The notes below the pieces were generated by a model. The model did no database searches and was not told where the DNA came from. It worked only from the letters and a program-made list of their open reading frames with translations. The translations under genes were made by a program, and so were the position numbers. From a virus (lineage: Duplodnaviria > Caudoviricetes): DNA of 35,229 nt. The stretch is from positions 1 through 35,229 of the IMG/VR virus record IMGVR_UViG_3300025018_002594. One strand, 5' to 3'. Shown piece after piece: positions 7,202 through 23,657 of the stretch; position 1 is the stretch's first letter; the number at the start of each line of letters is the position of its first letter.

Positions 7202-8605
7202 ATGTCTTCGCTTGATTCTCCAATTGCAAGTGTCTTTGGTATTCAGTATGAAGACCTCTTGCTTACGTGCTTAATCAAAGTACCAAACTTTCAGGCCGCG
7301 TATGGCACACACTTAAACGTGGATGTCTTTGATGGTGCGGGCAATCGTTGCATTCGTGAAGCGCACATTGCATTGTACAATGCGGGCCACCGTCACATCA
7401 CAACGCGCATGCTTAATATCCACTTGATTACGGAACGCAAGCGTACACGCGAATCATCCGAGCGCCACAATGTTTTGACGCTTGCACTCAAACGGCTCAA
7501 AGAAGTTCATAAACATAAAGTAAACGGAGATGAAGTACAATACGTTGAGGCAAAACTCACTGAGTTTCTACAACGACAGAATGTCATTGCAGTCTTGCTT
7601 GCGTCAGAAAGTTATGTCAACAAAGCAGACTATGATGGCTTGATTATTGCGCTACGCGACGCCACCCATATCGATGCCAATGCAGGCAGCAATGGCAACC
7701 TCACAAAACGATTGGGTATGAACTTCGCTGCGCCGACGTTGCGCATGAAACAATACATCTCGCGACGAAAAGAAGGCTCACATGTTACGACCGGGATTCC
7801 AATTCTAGATACATTAACCAATGGCGGTATCGCATCCGGTACGCTCACGCTTGTTATGGCTCCTACAGGGCGCGGTAAAACAATGATGCTCATTAACACG
7901 GCTGCCGCTGCAATGCACGCAGGCAAGCGTGTGGTACATATCACGTTGGAAATCAGCGCGCAGATAACCGCAATGCGTTACGATGCGCGATTGATTGGCG
8001 TGCCTATCAACGATATCTTTCGTAACCCGTTGCGATATACAAAACAAATCAAGCATGCGACGCGTGCGGTTACTGCAAACGGTGGCGGATTAGTTATCAA
8101 GGAATGGGGCAGTGCAGAAGCCGGACTGCGCGATATAGAATTGTATCTTGAGTTGCTACGTACGGAAACGCAATACAAACCAGATGTATTGATTGTGGAT
8201 TATGCTGATTTGATATGCCCTAGAGGACTCAAGCAGTCTTCGCGTGCGGAGAACGATAAACGGTTTGCGCTGGCAGAAATCACAACGCGCTTGCGACAAA
8301 TGGCAAAGGATTTAGATTGCGCGGTACTTTCCGCCACACAAACAAACCGTAAAGGCTATGCCGCCACTATCGTAGATTTAGATACCGTTGCGGAAAGCAT
8401 CGACAAAGTAAATATCGCCGATATTGTTATCGGTTTGTGTCAAACCAAAATGGAGCGTGAGAAGAAACTCATGCGATTAGTGTTATCAAAAAATCGATTG
8501 GGCGGGCGTGAAGGAATGATTATTGATTGTGATGTTAATACTGCAACGCAAACGATAACGCAACGCACAAAACAAATGGTACACCGTATCGAAGACTCAG
8601 AATGA
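7202..8605 (+). CDS. Replicative DNA helicase (DnaB / T4 gp41-like, SF4)
   Basis: Walker A APTGRGKT, 'HITLE', Walker B 'LIVDYAD', 'SATQTNR', 'KNR'. Confidence 0.92.
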   Translation: MSSLDSPIASVFGIQYEDLLLTCLIKVPNFQAAYGTHLNVDVFDGAGNRCIREAHIALYNAGHRHITTRMLNIHLITERKRTRESSERHNVLTLALKRLKEVHKHKVNGDEVQYVEAKLTEFLQRQNVIAVLLASESYVNKADYDGLIIALRDATHIDANAGSNGNLTKRLGMNFAAPTLRMKQYISRRKEGSHVTTGIPILDTLTNGGIASGTLTLVMAPTGRGKTMMLINTAAAAMHAGKRVVHITLEISAQITAMRYDARLIGVPINDIFRNPLRYTKQIKHATRAVTANGGGLVIKEWGSAEAGLRDIELYLELLRTETQYKPDVLIVDYADLICPRGLKQSSRAENDKRFALAEITTRLRQMAKDLDCAVLSATQTNRKGYAATIVDLDTVAESIDKVNIADIVIGLCQTKMEREKKLMRLVLSKNRLGGREGMIIDCDVNTATQTITQRTKQMVHRIEDSE

Positions 8606-8647: not shown

Positions 8648-9760
8648 ATGCGCAAACATAAATTAGGTGGCACATTACCGCAGCGCGATGTCGAAAGCTC
8701 GCTGGAGGGCTATGTAGTGGCTGCATTGAACGGTGTACCGGCAAGCGAGCGGGGTGAATACCTTTGTGATTGCCCACAATGCGGTAAACGAAAACTATAT
8801 GTGAACGTTGTGAGTGGATTGGCGCATTGCTTTCACGCGGATTGTTTGTATTCGGCACATCTTGCAAAGTTAATACAAGATGTTGACGGTTGCGATATAT
8901 CAGAAGCGCGCAAGCGGGCGCATGCGTTGCTCGACGATGATGGTAGTTTTTGCAATACAACGCAATGTAAGAACGCAAACGAAACGGAAACGCGTAACGA
9001 TACGCTTGCACGCTTCACAACGTATCTCGCAAACGGTACACACAAAGCAAATGATACGGTATTGCAAAACGCAAACGATACGCAATGTACGATACCGCCC
9101 GGTTGTGTGCCCATTACTTCGCAATACGCAAAGCGGGCAGTGAACTATTTGCGTGCGCGGGGCGTCGCAGACGATACGATGTTGGATTACGTATTGCAGT
9201 TTTGTATTTCGCCGCAATCGCATGAGCACGAACGCTATCGTTCGCATATCGTGTTTCCGTTTTATGAAACGAAAAAGAACGGTACACAAAAATTAGTTTA
9301 TTGGACTACGCGCCGTACGTACGAAACAAAAGATACTCACTTGCCGAAGTCGTATCATCCGAGCGGTATACCAAAGCCAAATATAATTGGCGCGCAATAC
9401 GTGCAGGGCGATGATGTGTTTATCGTTGAGGGGCCAATGGATATGCTTGCGTTTCCGTATCGTGCAATACCGTTGCTCGGTTCGTCCATGACCGAGCAGA
9501 CTGCGCGTGCGTTGTGCAAGCGATACAAATCAATCACGCTGATGCTGGATAACGATGCGCGTCGCAGTCGTGTGCAATGTGCGGAAATCTTATTGCGATA
9601 CGCCAACGATGCAAGCATTGCGTGCTATGTGCTCGTGCCGCGCACCGATCCTGCCGATATGATGTGCGAGATACCGGGTGCATCGTTGCGCATTGATACA
9701 GTGCAGGCGCAACGCGTGCGGTTGGAATTGAGTATGCTCCATCAACTGTATTATCTGTAA
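8648..9760 (+). CDS. DNA primase (N-terminal Zn finger plus TOPRIM domain)
   Basis: CPQC...HCFHADC zinc-binding motif; TOPRIM motifs 'IVEGPMD' and 'MLDND'; adjacent to the helicase. AGGAGG RBS. Confidence 0.88.
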   Translation: MRKHKLGGTLPQRDVESSLEGYVVAALNGVPASERGEYLCDCPQCGKRKLYVNVVSGLAHCFHADCLYSAHLAKLIQDVDGCDISEARKRAHALLDDDGSFCNTTQCKNANETETRNDTLARFTTYLANGTHKANDTVLQNANDTQCTIPPGCVPITSQYAKRAVNYLRARGVADDTMLDYVLQFCISPQSHEHERYRSHIVFPFYETKKNGTQKLVYWTTRRTYETKDTHLPKSYHPSGIPKPNIIGAQYVQGDDVFIVEGPMDMLAFPYRAIPLLGSSMTEQTARALCKRYKSITLMLDNDARRSRVQCAEILLRYANDASIACYVLVPRTDPADMMCEIPGASLRIDTVQAQRVRLELSMLHQLYYL

Positions 9761-9860
9761 TATTACTCATAACGTGCCTGAATAAACGCGCATTTCATTG
9801 GGGTTCTAAATAATGCGTTGACGTAAACCATTGATATATAAGGGGTTATAACTATTTTAT

Positions 9861-9897
9861 TTTTTTGTTGCAATTTTGCAGCAATATAATGTACAAT
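9861..9897 (+). promoter_or_regulatory. Putative sigma70-type early promoter
   Basis: AT-rich tract with TATAAT at 9885-9890, and TTGCAA (9868-9873) 18 nt before TACAAT (9892-9897). Immediately upstream of the long non-coding structured region. Confidence 0.55.
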
Positions 9898-9912
9898 TAG
9901 GTATAGAACATT

Positions 9913-10700
9913 TGAACCGTACCTGCTAACAAGCGCAGGACAAGGCGTGCAACAAACGGCCCGGGATGACATGACGCGCATCGAGCGCGAAGAGACTCCC
10001 CGAAAAGCGGTGGCGAAGATAAACGATGTTGCGCACAGAGCCGATAGGCCGATAACACGGATCACATCGTGACTTGGGAAAGTGATAATAATTGAATCGA
10101 ATAGCCACCCCGCAATAGCGGCGGGGTAAAACGCACAACGCAAACGCGTAGCGGCAGACAGATATTGTATGCAGCGCGGAAACGAAATGCGGGCGGCATA
10201 TACGTAGCGGGGAAACCTTTACATACATTCACACGCGGGGCGACGAAGCGGACCGGGTGATGAAAGCAACGTATATGATAAGCACACGGCAACCCTCACC
10301 TACAAATCACGGCAAAGCAAATCATGGCTTGCACGTGCTCGATGCAGAAGCGACTTGAGTTTGTCGCCGACGCTTCATATGTAATTCGGCCCTGGAAGGC
10401 TACAGCGTTTGGTTATGCAAACGCCGTGAACAAATCTCTGCATTGTATGCAGGTACGATTCACACGGCGACGCGCACAACGCAAACGACGCCAAGAAATC
10501 CGATAGCGTATGAATCCAATCGTTAGGCTCTGATGAAATGCACTAAGTGCGAAAAGATGGAGCTTACACGCCATAGCGTGGCGATTTGAAATTGAACATG
10601 TAGCGCGAACGAATGCACGTTGAGTGCGAACAAATGCGCAGCGGTCAAGCAAAGATTTCCTGATGTAGCGTCAAATGCGAAAGCGTTTGGATGTTGAGGA
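9913..10700 (+). ncRNA. Candidate large structured non-coding RNA or leader (class not recognised)
   Basis: No ORF with an RBS. Long-range helices 9913-9926/10449-10462 (13/14 bp), 9978-9989/10334-10345 (12 bp), 10197-10208/10266-10277 (11/12 bp), plus many local hairpins. Confidence 0.55.
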
Positions 10701-10703
10701 CAC

Positions 10704-10794
10704 CTTTCGAGAAATCGAAACACGCGGCTGGTTTATCCGCCGCGTGTCGTTGCACGGTGGCTCGTGCAACCTGATGATGATAGCCAATCGAAAG
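10704..10794 (+). ncRNA. Type II hammerhead ribozyme with pseudoknot; predicted cleavage after C10748 (GUC)
   Basis: GAAA 10717-10720; stem III cacgcggc/gccgcgtg; UC 10747-10748; stem I gttgcacg/cgtgcaac with loop gtggct; CUGAUGA 10771-10777 plus one extra U; stem II atc/gat extended by ctttcga/tcgaaag; loop-I TGGCT pairs with AGCCA 10782-10786. Confidence 0.88.
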
Positions 10795-10817
10795 AACACA
10801 ACCCAAAGGACAGAGCA

Positions 10818-11132
10818 ATGAAAACGCAAATGCAAACATGGTACGTGACAGTTGAGAATGATGACACCAATAAACTCGAATCAGTTCACGCATTCAGTAC
10901 GAATGCAGCGGCAGGATGTTTTGTTGAGCATGTGCGTAAATCGAATGCTAACGAGAGCCGCAGTACCGCATATCATGCGGAAGTGAAGAGCGGACGTTGC
11001 TACCAAGTTGCCTGTCACGCAAATGGAAAGGGTAAGCAACTCGTAACGTTGAACGTTGTGCTTGATCGAATGACTCTTGTTGGTGATAACAAGCGTCATT
11101 ATTATGGCATCAAGTTTGTTGACCATCGTTAA
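10818..11132 (+). CDS. Hypothetical early protein
   Basis: ATG at 10818 with AAGGACAG RBS, directly downstream of the hammerhead. Confidence 0.7.
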   Translation: MKTQMQTWYVTVENDDTNKLESVHAFSTNAAAGCFVEHVRKSNANESRSTAYHAEVKSGRCYQVACHANGKGKQLVTLNVVLDRMTLVGDNKRHYYGIKFVDHR

Positions 11133-11185
11133 ATCAAATCGAACACAATCGAATACAAACGAAACCCAAACGAGAGGATAGAACA

Positions 11186-11603: not shown

Positions 11604-11644
11604 GTAGACCGCGTGCCGTCGTATTGTGCGGCGGCACGCATCAC
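11604..11644 (+). repeat. Intergenic hairpin element, copy 1 (copy 2 at 12384-12424)
   Basis: gcgtgccgtcgta-ttg-tgcggcggcacgc forms a 13-bp stem; a near-identical copy lies 780 bp downstream. Confidence 0.8.
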
Positions 11645-11670
11645 ACAACCCGAAACGAGAGGACACGATC

Positions 11671-12383: not shown

Positions 12384-12424
12384 GTATACCGCGTGCCGTT
12401 GTATTGGGTGACGGCACGCTTCAC
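12384..12424 (+). repeat. Intergenic hairpin element, copy 2
   Basis: gcgtgccgttgt-attgg-gtgacggcacgc; differences from copy 1 within the stem preserve pairing. Confidence 0.8.
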
Positions 12425-12457
12425 GTTTGAACACAATCCAAAGAGGACACGAATCAA

Positions 12458-13702: not shown

Positions 13703-13716
13703 TATATAATTTATAC

Positions 13717-13784
13717 TGAGTGCGTGCGCTTCATTGGAGCGTCGCGATTTGTTTACATACTGTAGCGTGAAGCGCACGCACTCA
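13717..13784. repeat. 17-bp perfect inverted repeat between the AAA+ and VWA genes
   Basis: tgagtgcgtgcgcttca (13717-13733) / tgaagcgcacgcactca (13768-13784), 34-nt spacer. Confidence 0.85.
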
Positions 13785-13829
13785 TTACCGAAACACAATT
13801 CAACACAACACAACCGAGAGGACACTATT

Positions 13830-16229: not shown

Positions 16230-16255
16230 CGCATAACGCATGTCAAACAAGTTGG

Positions 16256-16355
16256 TGATAGTATAACGGCGTGATGGGCGTGTGGCTCATGATGCGATGT
16301 GATTAGCGCGCGGGCGTTGTTGCTTGCTGTCCTCTCGCAACGACACTCGCTTTCA
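16256..16355 (+). ncRNA. Candidate small RNA or leader with an anti-RBS loop (UGUCCUCUC)
   Basis: Extended -10-like TG-A-TAGTAT (16256-16264); hairpin 16310-16323/16337-16350 (13/14 bp) followed by ttt; loop is the reverse complement of the recurrent GAGAGGACA RBS. Confidence 0.5.
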
Positions 16356-16375: not shown

Positions 16376-17998
16376 ATGCAGTACCAGTTTGCATTCGACG
16401 ATTTGTGTTCCGTCGCAAATGCGTACGAGCGTGCGCAAGTGCCGAGCACTCCTGACAAACGAAAGCGCTACAAACTTCCGTCGGGCTTCACGCCCATCAC
16501 TCCGTTGTATTATCACCAGCTTGTTGGTGTGCATCGCTTGATATGCAATGCGCAATATGGTTTGTTTGACGAGCCGGGTCTCGGCAAGACTTTGCAGTTG
16601 ATGTACGCGGTATATGAGTTGCAACAGACGCGGCGCATCGAGCGCACAATAATTATTTGCAAAGCGTCACATGCGTACACATGGCAGACGCAATTGCAAA
16701 CACACCTTCCGTCTTGTACCGTGCATTCGCTCGTAGGCAAGACGCCTGTGCAACGCATATACAATGATACCGCCGACTTCACGATAGTCAATTATGAGTT
16801 GTTGCAACGTACCGGTAAGCACTACAGTCCGCCGTTACGCGTACCATGGAGCCATCAAACATTGCGCTATAGCGAAGACGTTGCGCGATTGATTGCATAC
16901 GCGACTAAGTACAAGTGTGCCGTTGTATGTGATGAATCGCAGTACATCAAGAGCATGCGCGCCAATATTACGCGTACGCTGTGTGCGCTCGCTCCATTGT
17001 TTACGCGCCGGTATATTGCAACGGGTACGCCCATTTCCGAGCGGCCTGATGACGCGTGGTCGCAGGTATTCTTTCTCGATAGCGGCAAGCTGTTTGGCAC
17101 GTCATATCTTTCGTTTCTGCGCAATCACGCAGACCTGATTCAGACGCAGTACGGTTTGAAAGTTATTCGGTATAAAAATATGCAGTCATTGCACAAGCGC
17201 CTGCGCATGATAAGCGTACGTCGTCTCAAGGATGATTGCCTAGATTTACCACCTAAGTTAGTGCGTGATGTTCCAATGCTTGCCGACGCGACGCACGAGC
17301 GCGTGATGCAACGATATCGTGATGCGTTGTTGACCGCGTTGCATGTGTACAAGGGCAACACCATTACGCCGCAAAAGAACAGTAACATCTCGCAAGCATT
17401 GCAAGACATTCAAGTCGCGGCGGCGATGCCGTGTTTGCTTGACGCGCAATGTGAGCGCAAACACAATACCAAGTACCAGCGTTTGCTCGATGACTTGCAC
17501 GATATGAACGGCGCATATTTGATTGTGTGGTGCGTGCATGTAACGGTTGCCAAAAGGCTCACGCAATTCTTGCAACAAGACGGCATTAACGTTGCCTGTA
17601 TATATGGCGATGTTGCGCACACCGAGCGCGCACGTATTATTGAAGCCTTTCAATCAGGCACCGGTGTGCAAGTGCTTGTGGCAACGCAAGCGTCATTGCG
17701 CGAGAACGTTACGCTCACGCGTGCCAAGCGTGCGGTGTATTATGAATTGGATTGGGCGCTTACAAATTGGGTGCAGTCGCAAGACCGCATTCACAGAATT
17801 GATGCACAATCCGCATCGGGTACTGCACAAACCACCGAGCACATTTTGCTCGATGTGTTCTTGCTCAGGCAATCGCTAGACGAGTATATGTTCTCGGTCA
17901 TTCAAGCTAAGCAACTTGTTGCGCAGTCTGTGACCGATGGCGGACGACACAAGCAAGCATTGACCAAGCTTAAACTTATTCGTGCGCTGCGATGGTAG
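16376..17998 (+). CDS. SNF2-family (SF2) helicase
   Basis: Motif I DEPGLGKT, 'IVNYELL', motif II CDESQ, motif III ATGTP, motif VI 'QSQDRIHRI'. Confidence 0.9.
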   Translation: MQYQFAFDDLCSVANAYERAQVPSTPDKRKRYKLPSGFTPITPLYYHQLVGVHRLICNAQYGLFDEPGLGKTLQLMYAVYELQQTRRIERTIIICKASHAYTWQTQLQTHLPSCTVHSLVGKTPVQRIYNDTADFTIVNYELLQRTGKHYSPPLRVPWSHQTLRYSEDVARLIAYATKYKCAVVCDESQYIKSMRANITRTLCALAPLFTRRYIATGTPISERPDDAWSQVFFLDSGKLFGTSYLSFLRNHADLIQTQYGLKVIRYKNMQSLHKRLRMISVRRLKDDCLDLPPKLVRDVPMLADATHERVMQRYRDALLTALHVYKGNTITPQKNSNISQALQDIQVAAAMPCLLDAQCERKHNTKYQRLLDDLHDMNGAYLIVWCVHVTVAKRLTQFLQQDGINVACIYGDVAHTERARIIEAFQSGTGVQVLVATQASLRENVTLTRAKRAVYYELDWALTNWVQSQDRIHRIDAQSASGTAQTTEHILLDVFLLRQSLDEYMFSVIQAKQLVAQSVTDGGRHKQALTKLKLIRALRW

Positions 17999-21008: not shown

Positions 21009-23657
21009 ATGAAAACGGATTGCGTAACACGCCCTGAGTGCATTGCCTGTGCGCTGCATACGCAATGCCGTTCAGAAGCGATGAACGGTTACGGCAATGA
21101 AGCGCAAGGCGGCATTTTAATTATTGGTGATGCACCGAACGACCGAGACGACTTCAAGGGCCAACCGTTCAACGGCAAAGCGGCAGACCTGTTGCGGCGT
21201 ACGCTCAAGCGATACCGTGTGGACATGACGCGTGTGCGCTACACAAACGCGTTGCGATGCAAGCCGCCAGAAAACAAAGCGCCGAGCGTGAAACAAATCA
21301 ATGCGTGCCGTGACCTGCTTGTGCGAGAGATTGATGACTACACGCCTGAGTATATTCTCTTGCTCGGCAATACGCCCTTGCGTGCAGTGCTCAAAAAAGC
21401 AGGCATTACGAAGCAACGGCGTACGGTCTTCGCATACACCACACCGCAAGGAACAGCTTGCAAGGTCATTGCAGCGTTTCATCCGGGCCACGTCATGAAG
21501 CAACAAAACGAACTGAAACGCTTTGAAGGTGACATTAAATTTTTTGCAGACGTTGTGACTAATACGCATACGCACATCGGGAAGTTGTGCAAGCACATCA
21601 ACGCGCAGCCCACTGCAAAGCAATTGCTTGCGTGGTACACATCGCTTAAATATAAACCGCGTCCGGTTGCGTTTGACGTGGAGACCACTTCGTTGTATCC
21701 GCATCTCGAACACGATAGCATGGCTTTATTGTGTTTGGGTTTGAGCGACGGTAAGAAAACATTTGTGATTCGCTGGCAAAGCCTGCGCTCTGAGAAGGTA
21801 GATCGCAAGACCGTGTATATGGTGGACAACGCAACACGCAACAATGCGGCGATGGATGTTGCGCGTATGATTCTCGCAGACCCATGCGTGCCGAAGATTG
21901 CGCACAACGCAAAATATGATTTGCATTGCTTGCAGGTGTTACTCGGCATCCGCGTTGAGCCGGTTGTTTGCGATACGTTGTTGTTGCATGCGTTGTTGTT
22001 TCCGCAAGAAGGCGGGCATGACTTGTCTACCGTCGCTTGCGACCTGCTCAAGATTGATGACTACGCAAAGATGCTTGCACCGTATGTGGGTGACGGGTAC
22101 AACTCAAAAGCATATGGGAAAATTCCGTACAAAAAACTCGCACGGTATAACGCTTACGATATCGTTGCAACGCATGCGATTTATGTTCGCTTGTTGCGGC
22201 GACTCGTACGCATGGACAAGCAACACGTTGAAAAGAAATCACTCGGTGTGTTGCCAAGCGTGTTATTCGACAAACTTATCATGCGTGCGATGTATACGTT
22301 GTACGATGCGGAGTTGTTGGGCTTCACGGTGGATCGCGAACATTTAGAAGGACAGCACGGTGTCGGGGCTGCGCTCAGTACGCGCTTGCTCAAACTGCAA
22401 CGCATTGTTAATAGCAACAATCATGTGAAGGCATACAACGCACGGCACACCGCAGAGGTCATCATGACTATTGCGCAACGCAAGCGTGCGCCTGCGGACC
22501 ATGTGCGTGCGCGCATGCTCAACGATTGTTTGTTCAACCTCAACAGCGATGACAACGTACGCGAGTTGTTATTCACTGCGCCGTATTTTGCGTACACCAT
22601 TCCAGACGATATGCCGAAGACCGATGGTGGGCAAACAAGCGTAAGCGCAAGTGCATTGGAATTGCTCAAGCAATCATTGCCACCACGCGCCAACACGCTT
22701 ATGCTCGATACGTTGATTGAGCACAGCGCATTGCATCAGCGTTATACAACATTCATTGCAGGGCTTGCGCAACGCATTGCACGCGACGGACGCGTGCATG
22801 CCAACTTCAATCTCGGCGTCACGCGTACTGGTAGATTGTCATCGAGCAAACCCAATCTGCAAAACATTCCGCGTGAGAAAGAATTCAGAAATATATTCAC
22901 TGCCAGCGACGGCATGCAGTTGGTCAAAGCGGATTATTCACAAATCGAACTGCGTGTGCTCGCGGTCGTGGCACGCGACGAGAATATGATTGATATCTTT
23001 CAGAGCGGTCGCGACTTTCATGCCGAGACTGCGCGGCGCGTGTTTAATATTCCAAACGATGCAGAGGTGTCTAAAGAACTACGGTCGCGCGCAAAAGGCG
23101 TCAACTTTGGTGTGGCGTATGGCGAAGGTGCATACGGTCTCGCGCGTAACATCGGCATCACGCTTGAGCAGGCCGAAGAGTTTATCACAGCATACTACTC
23201 ATTGTTTCACGGATTGCACGCATGGCAGGAGAAAACAAAAGCGTTCGTACGCATGCACGGCTACGTGCAATCCATCTTCGGCAGGCGGCGCATGATTGCA
23301 AACGCAACCATTAAACCATATGCACAACCGGATTGGCGCAAGTTGGTAGGTGCCGCGTATCGCATGGCGGTAAACACGCCGATACAGAGCGCGGCAAGCG
23401 ATATGTGTTTGTGCAGCGCAAACGCATTGGCAAAACGTTTCACCGTACTCAAACTCGATGCGCGTGTGTTGTCTATCGTGCATGATGAAATTATTACCGA
23501 GTGCGCCGACGCATTAGTGCCGCGTGTTGCGGATTTGATACGAATGACCATGACGCGCGAGCCGCTGCGTTGGGTTGGTAAATGGTTCACGGATGTGCCT
23601 ATCATTGTGGACGTGGAAGGAGGCAAATCATGGGGCAGTACGCTGCCAATTATTTAA
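21009..23657 (+). CDS. polA: Family A DNA polymerase with N-terminal uracil-DNA glycosylase-like domain and 3'-5' exonuclease
   Basis: UDG family-4-like 'CIAC..GDAPN..GQPF.GKA..TNALRCKP..FHP'; Exo I 'FDVET', Exo II 'HNAKYD', Exo III 'YNAYD'; 'TRTGRLSS..PNLQNIP'; motif A 'DYSQIELR'; motif B 'RSRAKGVNFGVAYG'; motif C 'VHDE'. Confidence 0.95.
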   Translation: MKTDCVTRPECIACALHTQCRSEAMNGYGNEAQGGILIIGDAPNDRDDFKGQPFNGKAADLLRRTLKRYRVDMTRVRYTNALRCKPPENKAPSVKQINACRDLLVREIDDYTPEYILLLGNTPLRAVLKKAGITKQRRTVFAYTTPQGTACKVIAAFHPGHVMKQQNELKRFEGDIKFFADVVTNTHTHIGKLCKHINAQPTAKQLLAWYTSLKYKPRPVAFDVETTSLYPHLEHDSMALLCLGLSDGKKTFVIRWQSLRSEKVDRKTVYMVDNATRNNAAMDVARMILADPCVPKIAHNAKYDLHCLQVLLGIRVEPVVCDTLLLHALLFPQEGGHDLSTVACDLLKIDDYAKMLAPYVGDGYNSKAYGKIPYKKLARYNAYDIVATHAIYVRLLRRLVRMDKQHVEKKSLGVLPSVLFDKLIMRAMYTLYDAELLGFTVDREHLEGQHGVGAALSTRLLKLQRIVNSNNHVKAYNARHTAEVIMTIAQRKRAPADHVRARMLNDCLFNLNSDDNVRELLFTAPYFAYTIPDDMPKTDGGQTSVSASALELLKQSLPPRANTLMLDTLIEHSALHQRYTTFIAGLAQRIARDGRVHANFNLGVTRTGRLSSSKPNLQNIPREKEFRNIFTASDGMQLVKADYSQIELRVLAVVARDENMIDIFQSGRDFHAETARRVFNIPNDAEVSKELRSRAKGVNFGVAYGEGAYGLARNIGITLEQAEEFITAYYSLFHGLHAWQEKTKAFVRMHGYVQSIFGRRRMIANATIKPYAQPDWRKLVGAAYRMAVNTPIQSAASDMCLCSANALAKRFTVLKLDARVLSIVHDEIITECADALVPRVADLIRMTMTREPLRWVGKWFTDVPIIVDVEGGKSWGSTLPII

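What the first reader, a model, noticed from the sequence alone, without database searches (positions are those of the whole stretch)
9913..10700. About 800 nt of ornate non-coding sequence downstream of a promoter: candidate new large ncRNA
Seen: in a genome otherwise packed with overlapping genes, about 1 kb has no ORF with an RBS. It contains nested long-range helices 9913-26/10449-62 (13/14 bp, enclosing ~520 nt), 9978-89/10334-45 (12 bp) and 10197-208/10266-77; helices acgatgt/acatcgt (10023-10070) and accccgc/gcggggt (10107-10127); a crossing pair gggtga (10255-60)/tcacct (10296-301) that would be a pseudoknot; and a GAAA-capped hairpin at 10671-10690. It is bounded by a promoter and a hammerhead. 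Known: phages encode large ornate ncRNAs such as GOLLD and ROOL. I see no RNase P, tmRNA or group I/II signatures and cannot assign a class. Inference: an early structured RNA matured by the ribozyme.
Basis: partly seen in the sequence, partly recalled or inferred. Interest (0 to 1): 0.72.

Follow-up and report, generated by a model that had tools for sequence, protein, structure and literature searches.

The report
Orphan phage RNA ending in hammerhead
An uncultured groundwater phage has an unusually long gene-free stretch (1,057 bases) that is likely copied into a folded RNA of about 850 bases and likely cut free at its 3' end by a self-cleaving hammerhead ribozyme, but no relative was found, so its fold and job remain unproven.

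Summary
The sequence facts hold. The gap 9761-10817 is 1,057 nt, against 235 for the next longest of 36 gaps. All listed pairings exist, and a canonical type II hammerhead lies at 10713-10789.

The 'ornate' claim is only weakly supported. Three long helices occur in 4 of 300 shuffles but also in 8 of 87 windows of this genome. Folding z is -3.2, falling to -1.2 without the closing stem. In the full transcript the closing stem and two other reader helices have probability 0.01 or less. The pseudoknot is chance-level. One 41-codon ORF does have a ribosome-binding motif, occluded in every fold tested.

No homologue was found, so covariation is untested. Rfam, ROOL, GOLLD, RNase P, tmRNA and group I/II tests were negative. 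A syntenic relative lacks the gap.

Best reading (0.42): an orphan structured early RNA released by the hammerhead, likely a protein scaffold or decoy. Main rival (0.33): a mosaic processing leader. Extras: a hammerhead-like element at 10524-10566, a hairpin masking the ribozyme core, and a natural core-variant allele.

The parts
8648..9760 (+). DNA primase gene (upstream boundary; DnaB helicase gene at 7202-8605 before it)
   Evidence: PHROG 47 E 7e-30, Toprim_2
9812..9828 (.). 17-nt intergenic DNA motif shared with a distant syntenic phage (possible operator or origin site)
   Evidence: Matches only in the window's own copy and in L002 8641-57 (L253 is the same contig) among 259 loci; noticed after the fact, BLAST E about 0.1
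9868..9897 (+). Promoter-like site; a perfect TATAAT also lies at 9885-9890; predicted start about 9897-9905
   Evidence: 9/12 match, not above chance; a similar -10 box follows the primase stop in relative L002
9913..9939 (+). 5' arm of the closing stalk; alternatively a local hairpin 9922-9939
   Evidence: Stalk probability 1.0 if the RNA ends at 10463, 0.01 if it ends at 10748; 3.8 kcal/mol between the two folds
9937..10072 (+). AGGA motif plus 41-codon GTG ORF, predicted occluded; translation doubtful
   Evidence: product not in the protein collection
9978..10345 (+).
   Evidence: Present; ensemble probability 0.01-0.10
10107..10127 (+). 7-bp hairpin
   Evidence: probability 0.82
10197..10277 (+). 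Best-supported internal helix, enclosing a GAAA-capped hairpin and the 5' half of the proposed pseudoknot
   Evidence: probability 0.99 at all lengths and both temperatures
10255..10301 (+). Proposed pseudoknot pair 10255-60/10296-301
   Evidence: Present but chance-level: 214 of 300 shuffles have at least one
10437..10462 (+). 3' arm of the closing stalk; alternatively a local hairpin 10438-10452
10524..10566 (+). Hammerhead-like element: 6-bp stem, CUGAUGA, hairpin, GAAA. It has G at the cleavage position, no stem III and a 3-nt insert; it can also be read as a kink-turn (consensus recalled, untested)
   Evidence: 0 of 3000 shuffles, unique on both strands of the contig, descriptor written after seeing it; stem probability 0.96; not hit by Rfam; no convincing relative in 120 viral pattern hits
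10666..10696 (+). GAAA-capped hairpin; superficially like group II domain 5 (AGC with G.U) but with the wrong bulge geometry
   Evidence: probability 0.85-0.91; no RF00029 match
10705..10720 (+). GAAA-capped 6-bp hairpin that pairs away the hammerhead's stem II arm and its GAAA core (possible off-switch)
   Evidence: probability 0.78, -4.8 kcal/mol; the pseudoknotted active fold is not modelled by ViennaRNA
10713..10789 (+). Type II hammerhead ribozyme: GAAA 10717-20, GUC 10746-48 (predicted cut after C10748), CUGAUGA 10771-77, pseudoknot 10758-62/10782-86
   Evidence: RF02276 43.8 bits; a core-variant allele at depth 7.3 against 18 in run X1, also in X2 and partly in X3
10807..11132 (+). Ribosome-binding site and first early ORF (ATG 10818, 104 aa, no family)
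   Evidence: positive codon score; no PHROG or Pfam hit for the 122-aa form; Atlas hits under 0.9

Best explanation
The 1,057-base gene-free gap is likely transcribed on the plus strand from just after the primase gene, and its type II hammerhead is predicted to cut after C10748, releasing a folded non-coding RNA of about 850 bases that likely acts on its own early in infection as a scaffold or decoy for host proteins. SHOWN: the gap, the lack of coding signal, the hammerhead motif, the possible pairings, and the absence of the gap in a syntenic relative. INFERRED: transcription; cleavage; a two-part layout (a 5' domain 9913-10462 of about 550 nt and a hairpin chain 10463-10720); a switch in which the closing stalk forms only while the 3' end lies near 10465-10475; tuning of cleavage by the 10705-10720 hairpin; and the scaffold or decoy role, which rests only on analogy to ROOL and GOLLD.
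For: The gap is 4.5 times the next largest of 36. All six frames score negative across 9700-10840. 9913-10462 folds better than 40 of 40 shuffles, z -3.18. Predicted unpaired bases on the plus strand are 52% A; GNRA hairpins with stems of 5 bp or more number 2 on plus and 0 on minus, against 0.41 per equal length of genome. A non-random hammerhead-like element lies inside (0 of 3000 shuffles). A long non-coding stretch before a type II hammerhead is rare: 3 of 36 distinct viral examples. One of them, L140 from an unrelated phage, shows the same layout of a long folded leader, hammerhead and small early ORFs, with z -3.98. In run X2, 10285-10761 carries one listed change (C10639U, which keeps a predicted pair as G.U) against six listed changes plus an insertion in 10762-10815; this is one contig at depth 3.7.
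Against: No homologue was found, so there is no covariation. The folding signal rests on the closing stem (z -1.15 without it; tail 10463-10712 z -0.5), and 2 of 14 control windows fold better than the target. The stalk, the 9978/10345 helix and the 10023/10070 helix have probability 0.01 or less in the full-length product. The pseudoknot is chance-level. This phage puts strong hairpins in several ordinary intergenic spacers. Most such hammerheads just separate genes (30 of 36; PMC3088659 section 6). A natural allele changes the ribozyme core (C3 to U without the G8 to A partner), so exact release may not be essential. Similarity to L140 is borderline (6 of 150 shuffles, one of three leaders tested).
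Confidence: 0.42

Rival explanations
1. Mosaic leader: the gap is the 5' untranslated region of the early operon, a patchwork of local hairpins, a nuclease-processing stalk, a decayed hammerhead and an active hammerhead. Its job is to shape and stabilise the downstream mRNA, and the released 5' piece is a by-product.
For: Only local hairpins and one 80-nt helix are stable in the full-length ensemble. Long hairpins sit before other genes of this phage (11611-11639, 12391-12419, 13717-13782). The hammerhead lies about 20 nt before a ribosome-binding site, like 22 of 36 viral examples. Hammerheads flank genes or gene blocks in prophages (PMC3088659, section 6 read).
Against: About 850 nt is far more than any other spacer here, and the syntenic relative goes from primase to the next ORF in 49 nt. 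A leader of 450 nt or more precedes only 3 of 36 such hammerheads.
Confidence: 0.33
2. DNA element: the gap is a replication origin or other protein-binding region beside the helicase-primase genes, and the inverted repeats act in DNA.
For: It follows the primase gene; 9760-9910 is AT-rich; both strands fold equally; a 17-nt motif is shared with a relative's intergenic gap near its helicase; the stalk's single mismatch would be G.U on the minus strand; a 15-nt direct repeat occurs at 10132 and 10473.
Against: No iteron array; no reversal of cumulative GC skew within this 34%-complete contig; the other wobble pairs, the GNRA loops and both hammerhead cores are on the plus strand. An origin would explain at most the first 150 bp.
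Confidence: 0.1
3. Relic of a mobile element: a non-autonomous insertion with 20-bp terminal inverted repeats (9913-10462), or a decayed group II intron-derived RNA, with no present function.
For: The arms begin TG and end CA, as in IS3-type ends (recalled). The stretch is absent from the relative. There is a domain-5-like hairpin at 10666-10696, and a GGGCGAC near 10238 resembles the circularly permuted group II splice-site consensus (compared by eye).
Against: No target-site duplication flanks the arms and there is no second copy in the contig. RF00029, RF02001 and RF02005 give no match at E 10 or below. The hairpin has 3 pairs and a 1-nt bulge after the triad, where five pairs are described (PMC8637638 part 2), and no domain 6 follows.
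Confidence: 0.1
4. Translated leader peptide: the 41-codon ORF 9947-10072 is made and controls folding of the leader.
For: AGGA lies 6 nt before GTG, like the phage's other start sites.
Against: The codon score is ambiguous and the ribosome-binding motif is predicted paired in all folds; the product is not in the protein collection; it covers 126 of about 850 nt.
Confidence: 0.05

Closest known systems
ROOL (RF03087) and GOLLD (RF02032) large ornate RNAs (PMC5737381 and PMC12286853, passages read)
   Same: Phage-encoded, 550-850 nt, no protein product, multi-stem predicted fold, function unknown.
   Different: No covariance-model match in the region; no tRNA in the contig, whereas ROOL and GOLLD are often near tRNAs; no covariation support here; this RNA heads an early operon and ends in a hammerhead.
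Type II hammerhead ribozymes of phages and prophages (RF02276; PMC3088659 sections 6 and 8 read)
   Same: 10713-10789 is a full member: consensus core, 3-bp stem II, loop I/3'-tail pseudoknot, just before a ribosome-binding site.
   Different: It is preceded by about 950 non-coding bases rather than a gene (3 of 36 comparable cases); an upstream hairpin can mask its core; a core-variant allele exists in the population.
Circularly permuted group II RNAs (PMC8637638; parts 1, 2 and 4 of the text, passages of supplement 3 and part 1 of supplement 4 seen)
   Same: About 900 nt, ORF-less, large bacterial RNA; a splice-site-like heptamer occurs near 10238.
   Different: No domain 5 or 6 matching the published consensus near the 5' end (by eye; no RF00029 match).
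Uncatalogued leader of viral contig L140 (G001)
   Same: Long folded non-coding stretch (z -3.98), then a type II hammerhead and small early ORFs; three short blocks shared in the same order, with a possible common 5-bp helix.
   Different: Unrelated phage; overall similarity borderline (6 of 150 shuffles; 109 of 500); no BLAST match; that 5-bp helix has probability 0.0 in this RNA's ensemble.

Membership tests
ROOL (RF03087) | Covariance-model match (six multistem junctions, three pseudoknots) | tested here: not met
   No match at E 10 or below in the own contig; the control genomes did not ring either, so sensitivity is unproven; none
GOLLD (RF02032) | Match to the conserved 3' domain model | tested here: not met
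   Only an 8.3-bit hit at 34458-86, outside the region
ROOL / GOLLD | Often next to tRNA genes | tested here: not met
   0 tRNA genes in the contig, which is about 34% complete
Large ornate ncRNA in general | Covariation-supported multi-junction fold | tested here: inconclusive
   No homologues found; only one listed substitution within 10285-10761 in related contigs
Large ornate ncRNA in general | Accumulates as a discrete RNA; forms multimers | not testable with these tools
   Needs RNA data or bench work
RNase P RNA (RF00010) | Covariance-model match | tested here: not met
   0 candidates; the control rang in 11 of 14 genomes
tmRNA | tRNA-like domain and tag peptide | tested here: not met
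   ARAGORN 0 genes; no Rfam hit
Group I intron (RF00028) | Catalytic core match; insertion inside a gene | tested here: not met
   No match at E 10 or below; the stretch is intergenic
Group II intron, canonical or circularly permuted | Domain 5 with triad, five pairs and bulge; domain 6; domain 1 motifs | tested here: not met
   RF00029, RF02005 and RF02001 negative; the other domain-1 models were tested only in the all-family scan; the 10666-96 hairpin has the wrong geometry
Type II hammerhead (10713-10789) | GAAA, stem III, NUH, stem I, CUGANGA, stem II, tail pseudoknot | tested here: met
   43.8 bits over the cut-off of 37; all elements read from the sequence
Type II hammerhead (10713-10789) | Self-cleavage | not testable with these tools
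   Inferred from the consensus
Type I hammerhead (10524-10566) | Stem III and NUH cleavage triplet | tested here: not met
   Core words and stems I and II are present, but there is G at position 17, no stem III and a 3-nt insert; no Rfam hit
Non-autonomous insertion element | Target-site duplication and further copies | tested here: not met
   No duplication beside 9913 or 10462; single copy in the contig

The most novel reading that the evidence does not exclude
First member of an undescribed class of large phage RNAs that head the early operon and are released at their 3' end by a switchable type II hammerhead. A domain of about 550 nt closes into a stalked fold once its tail is trimmed, carries a hammerhead-like non-cleaving module, and assembles into a protein-binding scaffold or cage; the L140 leader would be a distant second member.
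Probability: 0.27. Interest if true: 0.75.

Novelty: new variant of a known kind. Interest (0 to 1): 0.44.

Why it matters
Large structured bacterial and phage RNAs are rare, and those known (ROOL, GOLLD, OLE) form RNA-only assemblies of unknown purpose (PMC12286853). A further class, made at the head of the early operon and released by a ribozyme at its 3' end, would be directly testable in vitro: transcription would yield the RNA with a defined end. It would also give a purpose to some of the roughly 1,000 viral stretches matching this hammerhead pattern (estimate). Until homologues or RNA data appear it is a single uncorroborated candidate, and the mosaic-leader reading is nearly as likely.

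Tried and rejected
HOMOLOGUE SEARCHES, all negative for the RNA.
- blastn against phage records and plasmids (best E 3).
- One metagenome scan with a 22-mer, which found only the window's own record.
- Eight viral scans: primase and helicase, no relatives; helicase alignment, 2 loci; gapped pseudoknot pattern, 2 loci, of which L005 was read and is coding and L006 was not read; 5' stalk 14-mer, 119 of about 140 stretches, no extended similarity and one weak inverted partner; type II hammerhead pattern, 127 of about 1000, only 80 with long flanks; ATPase alignment, the same contig as L002; hammerhead-like pattern, 120 of about 310, none convincing.
- One genome scan: 6 loci, no similar stretch.
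- A close sister phage exists (helicase 86%, primase 68%) but its DNA could not be fetched.

SEQUENCING RUNS. No RNA holder was listed. Runs X6 and X7 showed only short matches from unrelated contigs.

CHANCE HITS. Hits in G004 fall inside a coding gene on the other strand. L193, the top chained-word score among 80 upstream regions, looks coding when read. L129 and L194 show no similarity.

DROPPED TESTS. The first stalk test had gap costs too low and was redone. Three helix rows were mis-indexed and are not used; they were re-run, where the row 'local3' was mis-indexed and is not used.

OTHER. A recalled likeness to group II intron domain 1 came from memory and was not borne out by the models. 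The profile search for ORF 11186 never left the queue, and the second Atlas query did not complete, so that ORF is uncharacterised beyond PHROG and Pfam.

LITERATURE. Five searches showed no description of this RNA. The list of over 10,000 viral candidate RNAs in PMC10690425 was seen only as a search listing and was not checked. The supplements of PMC12286853 were listed but not read.

Full report
CONTEXT. The window is a whole 35,229-base virus record, about 34% complete. It encodes DnaB, primase, a MoxR-type ATPase, an SNF2 helicase, a family A polymerase with a UDG domain, gp32, UvsX, RuvC and terminase, all on the plus strand. The best-listed phage records for the polymerase are 27-28% identical. 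Contigs 95-100% alike were laid from one aquifer run, which may be the source, and from five groundwater runs. One unfetchable sister has 86% helicase and 68% primase identity; all other relatives are below 40%. The syntenic relative L002 has helicase, primase, one small ORF and the ATPase, with 49 nt after the primase. The non-coding stretch and most of the small early ORFs are therefore specific to this lineage.

OBSERVATION. The gap 9761-10817 is 1,057 nt; the next of 36 gaps is 235. All 9 ORFs of 50 aa or more inside it score negative for codon usage, as do all six frames in sliding windows over 9700-10840. One caveat: a 41-codon GTG ORF at 9947 has AGGA 6 nt upstream, an ambiguous codon score and a predicted occluded start. 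Rfam finds only the type II hammerhead at 10713-10789.

HOW FAR ABOVE CHANCE. Three helices of 12 bp or more are reached by 4 of 300 shuffles but by 8 of 87 same-length windows of this genome. The domain 9913-10462 has z -3.18 (0 of 40 shuffles), dropping to -1.15 without the closing stem. The tail 10463-10712 has z -0.5, and 2 of 14 control windows are lower than the target. The stalk alone is matched by 113 of 1000 shuffles, or 84 of 2000 when tied to the 5' end. The crossing pair is ordinary, at 214 of 300. In the predicted ensemble of the ribozyme product 9897-10748, the 10197/10277 helix (0.99), the 10107 hairpin (0.82), the 10524/10566 stem (0.96) and the 10672 hairpin (0.91) are stable. 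The stalk, 9978/10345 and 10023/10070 are at 0.01 or less. Energy models are poor for RNAs this large, so this weakens the model without refuting it.

STRAND AND ENDS. Free energies do not tell the strand. Plus is favoured by gene direction, the ribozyme, A-rich unpaired bases (52%) and GNRA hairpins. The promoter match is not above chance, but a TATAAT at 9885-90 sits where the relative has its -10 box after the primase. The hammerhead has all consensus parts and is predicted to cut after C10748, giving a 5' product of about 850 nt and a downstream mRNA.

(a) A hammerhead-like element at 10524-10566, found in 0 of 3000 shuffles by a descriptor written afterwards. It lacks stem III and a cleavable triplet, so it is probably inactive or a kink-turn-like motif (consensus recalled). 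(b) A hairpin at 10705-10720 that pairs away the ribozyme's GAAA core (0.78), a possible off-switch. (c) A second allele, at depth 7.3 against 18 in X1 and present in X2 and partly X3, with changes clustered in 10762-10815. One keeps stem I as G.U, one is at the free core position, and C3 becomes U without the G8-to-A partner described in PMC3088659 section 8, so cleavage is likely weaker. Its one-base insertion puts an upstream ATG in frame with the next gene, matching the 152-aa protein P0030 from other assemblies; that ATG has no ribosome-binding motif. By contrast 10285-10761 shows a single listed change, which keeps a predicted pair. This is too little to test structure.

HOMOLOGUES. None were found (see Tried and rejected). 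A scan for type II hammerheads gave 127 loci of about 1000. Of the 80 listed with long flanks, 38 passed a stem-and-core filter and 36 were distinct: 30 have an ORF ending within 150 nt upstream, 22 have a ribosome-binding motif and start within 45 nt downstream, and 3 have 450 nt or more free. That ORF call is crude and over-counts in GC-rich DNA. One of the three, L140, has a folded leader (z -3.98) before a hammerhead and small early ORFs. It shares four short blocks with this RNA, three of them in order, at borderline significance (6 of 150; 109 of 500 by another score). It is a parallel in layout and at most a lead for homology.

MECHANISM. I commit to this reading: an early promoter makes a transcript, the hammerhead frees the 5' RNA, and that RNA acts as a protein scaffold or decoy (0.42). 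The gap, the missing coding signal and the ribozyme motif are shown. Transcription, cleavage and fold are inferred, and the role rests on analogy alone. Rivals are a mosaic processing leader (0.33), a DNA origin or operator (0.10), a mobile-element relic (0.10) and a leader peptide (0.05).

COMPARISON. It works, if at all, like ROOL or GOLLD in being a large phage RNA without protein product, but it fails their models (the ROOL control was silent) and those of RNase P, tmRNA and group I and II introns. It does not show the circularly permuted group II domain 5 consensus (by eye). Earlier notes of this scan describe large phage RNAs led by a hammerhead at the 5' end, and one case that proved to be a mosaic leader (unchecked by me). 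No look-alike of this sequence is among them.

PAPERS SEEN. PMC12286853: passages and supplement list. PMC8637638: parts 1, 2 and 4, passages of supplement 3 and part 1 of supplement 4. PMC5737381: passages. PMC3088659: passages and sections 6 and 8. PMC10085705: abstract and outline. PMC10690425: listing only; its unread candidate list could bear on novelty.

VERDICT. A real and unusual non-coding stretch with a real ribozyme; its ornate fold is unproven and it has no known relatives. Interest 0.44.

Noticed in passing
window 16246-16282 and 16489-16525: A 37-nt, 89% inverted repeat (extending to about 70 nt) pairs the intergenic leader with the coding sequence of the SNF2 helicase and encloses its start at 16376. 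It is by far the strongest long-range helix in the contig; possible translational control or nuclease site.
   Followed up: partly
window 13714-13787; 11611-11639; 12391-12419: Long hairpins just before ribosome-binding sites of early genes; the last two share arm sequence. Possible processing sites or terminators.
   Followed up: partly
window 9812-9828 and L002 8641-8657: A 17-nt intergenic motif with a near-palindromic core is shared with the distant relative, each time just after a gene end near the helicase-primase genes.
   Followed up: partly
window 10762-10815: A second allele with clustered changes in the hammerhead, about 30% of depth in run X1; its insertion fuses a 48-codon upstream frame to the next ORF (P0030).
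   Followed up: partly
L140 1180-1870 (minus strand); G001: An uncatalogued non-coding stretch of about 600 nt (z -3.98) leading into a type II hammerhead motif with a long stem III, with a second hammerhead one gene downstream. No Rfam family matches the leader, and no phage record matches. A candidate in its own right.
   Followed up: partly
L129 1170-1700 (minus strand): Another non-coding leader of about 500 nt before tandem type II hammerheads.
   Followed up: no
window 10790-10817, 11158-11185, 11643-11670, 12428-12457, 13795-13829: The early ORFs share an A/C-rich unstructured run followed by an AGGA-type ribosome-binding motif.
   Followed up: no
window 21009-23657: Family A DNA polymerase fused to an N-terminal uracil-DNA glycosylase-like domain; best matches are SPO1-like Bacillus phages at 27-28%.
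   Followed up: no
L254-L258: Five loci with this phage-type helicase (34-38%) lie in two Myxococcales genome bins, four of them in one bin; L259 (Ignavibacteriaceae bin) has helicase plus polymerase. Too distant to name a host.
   Followed up: no
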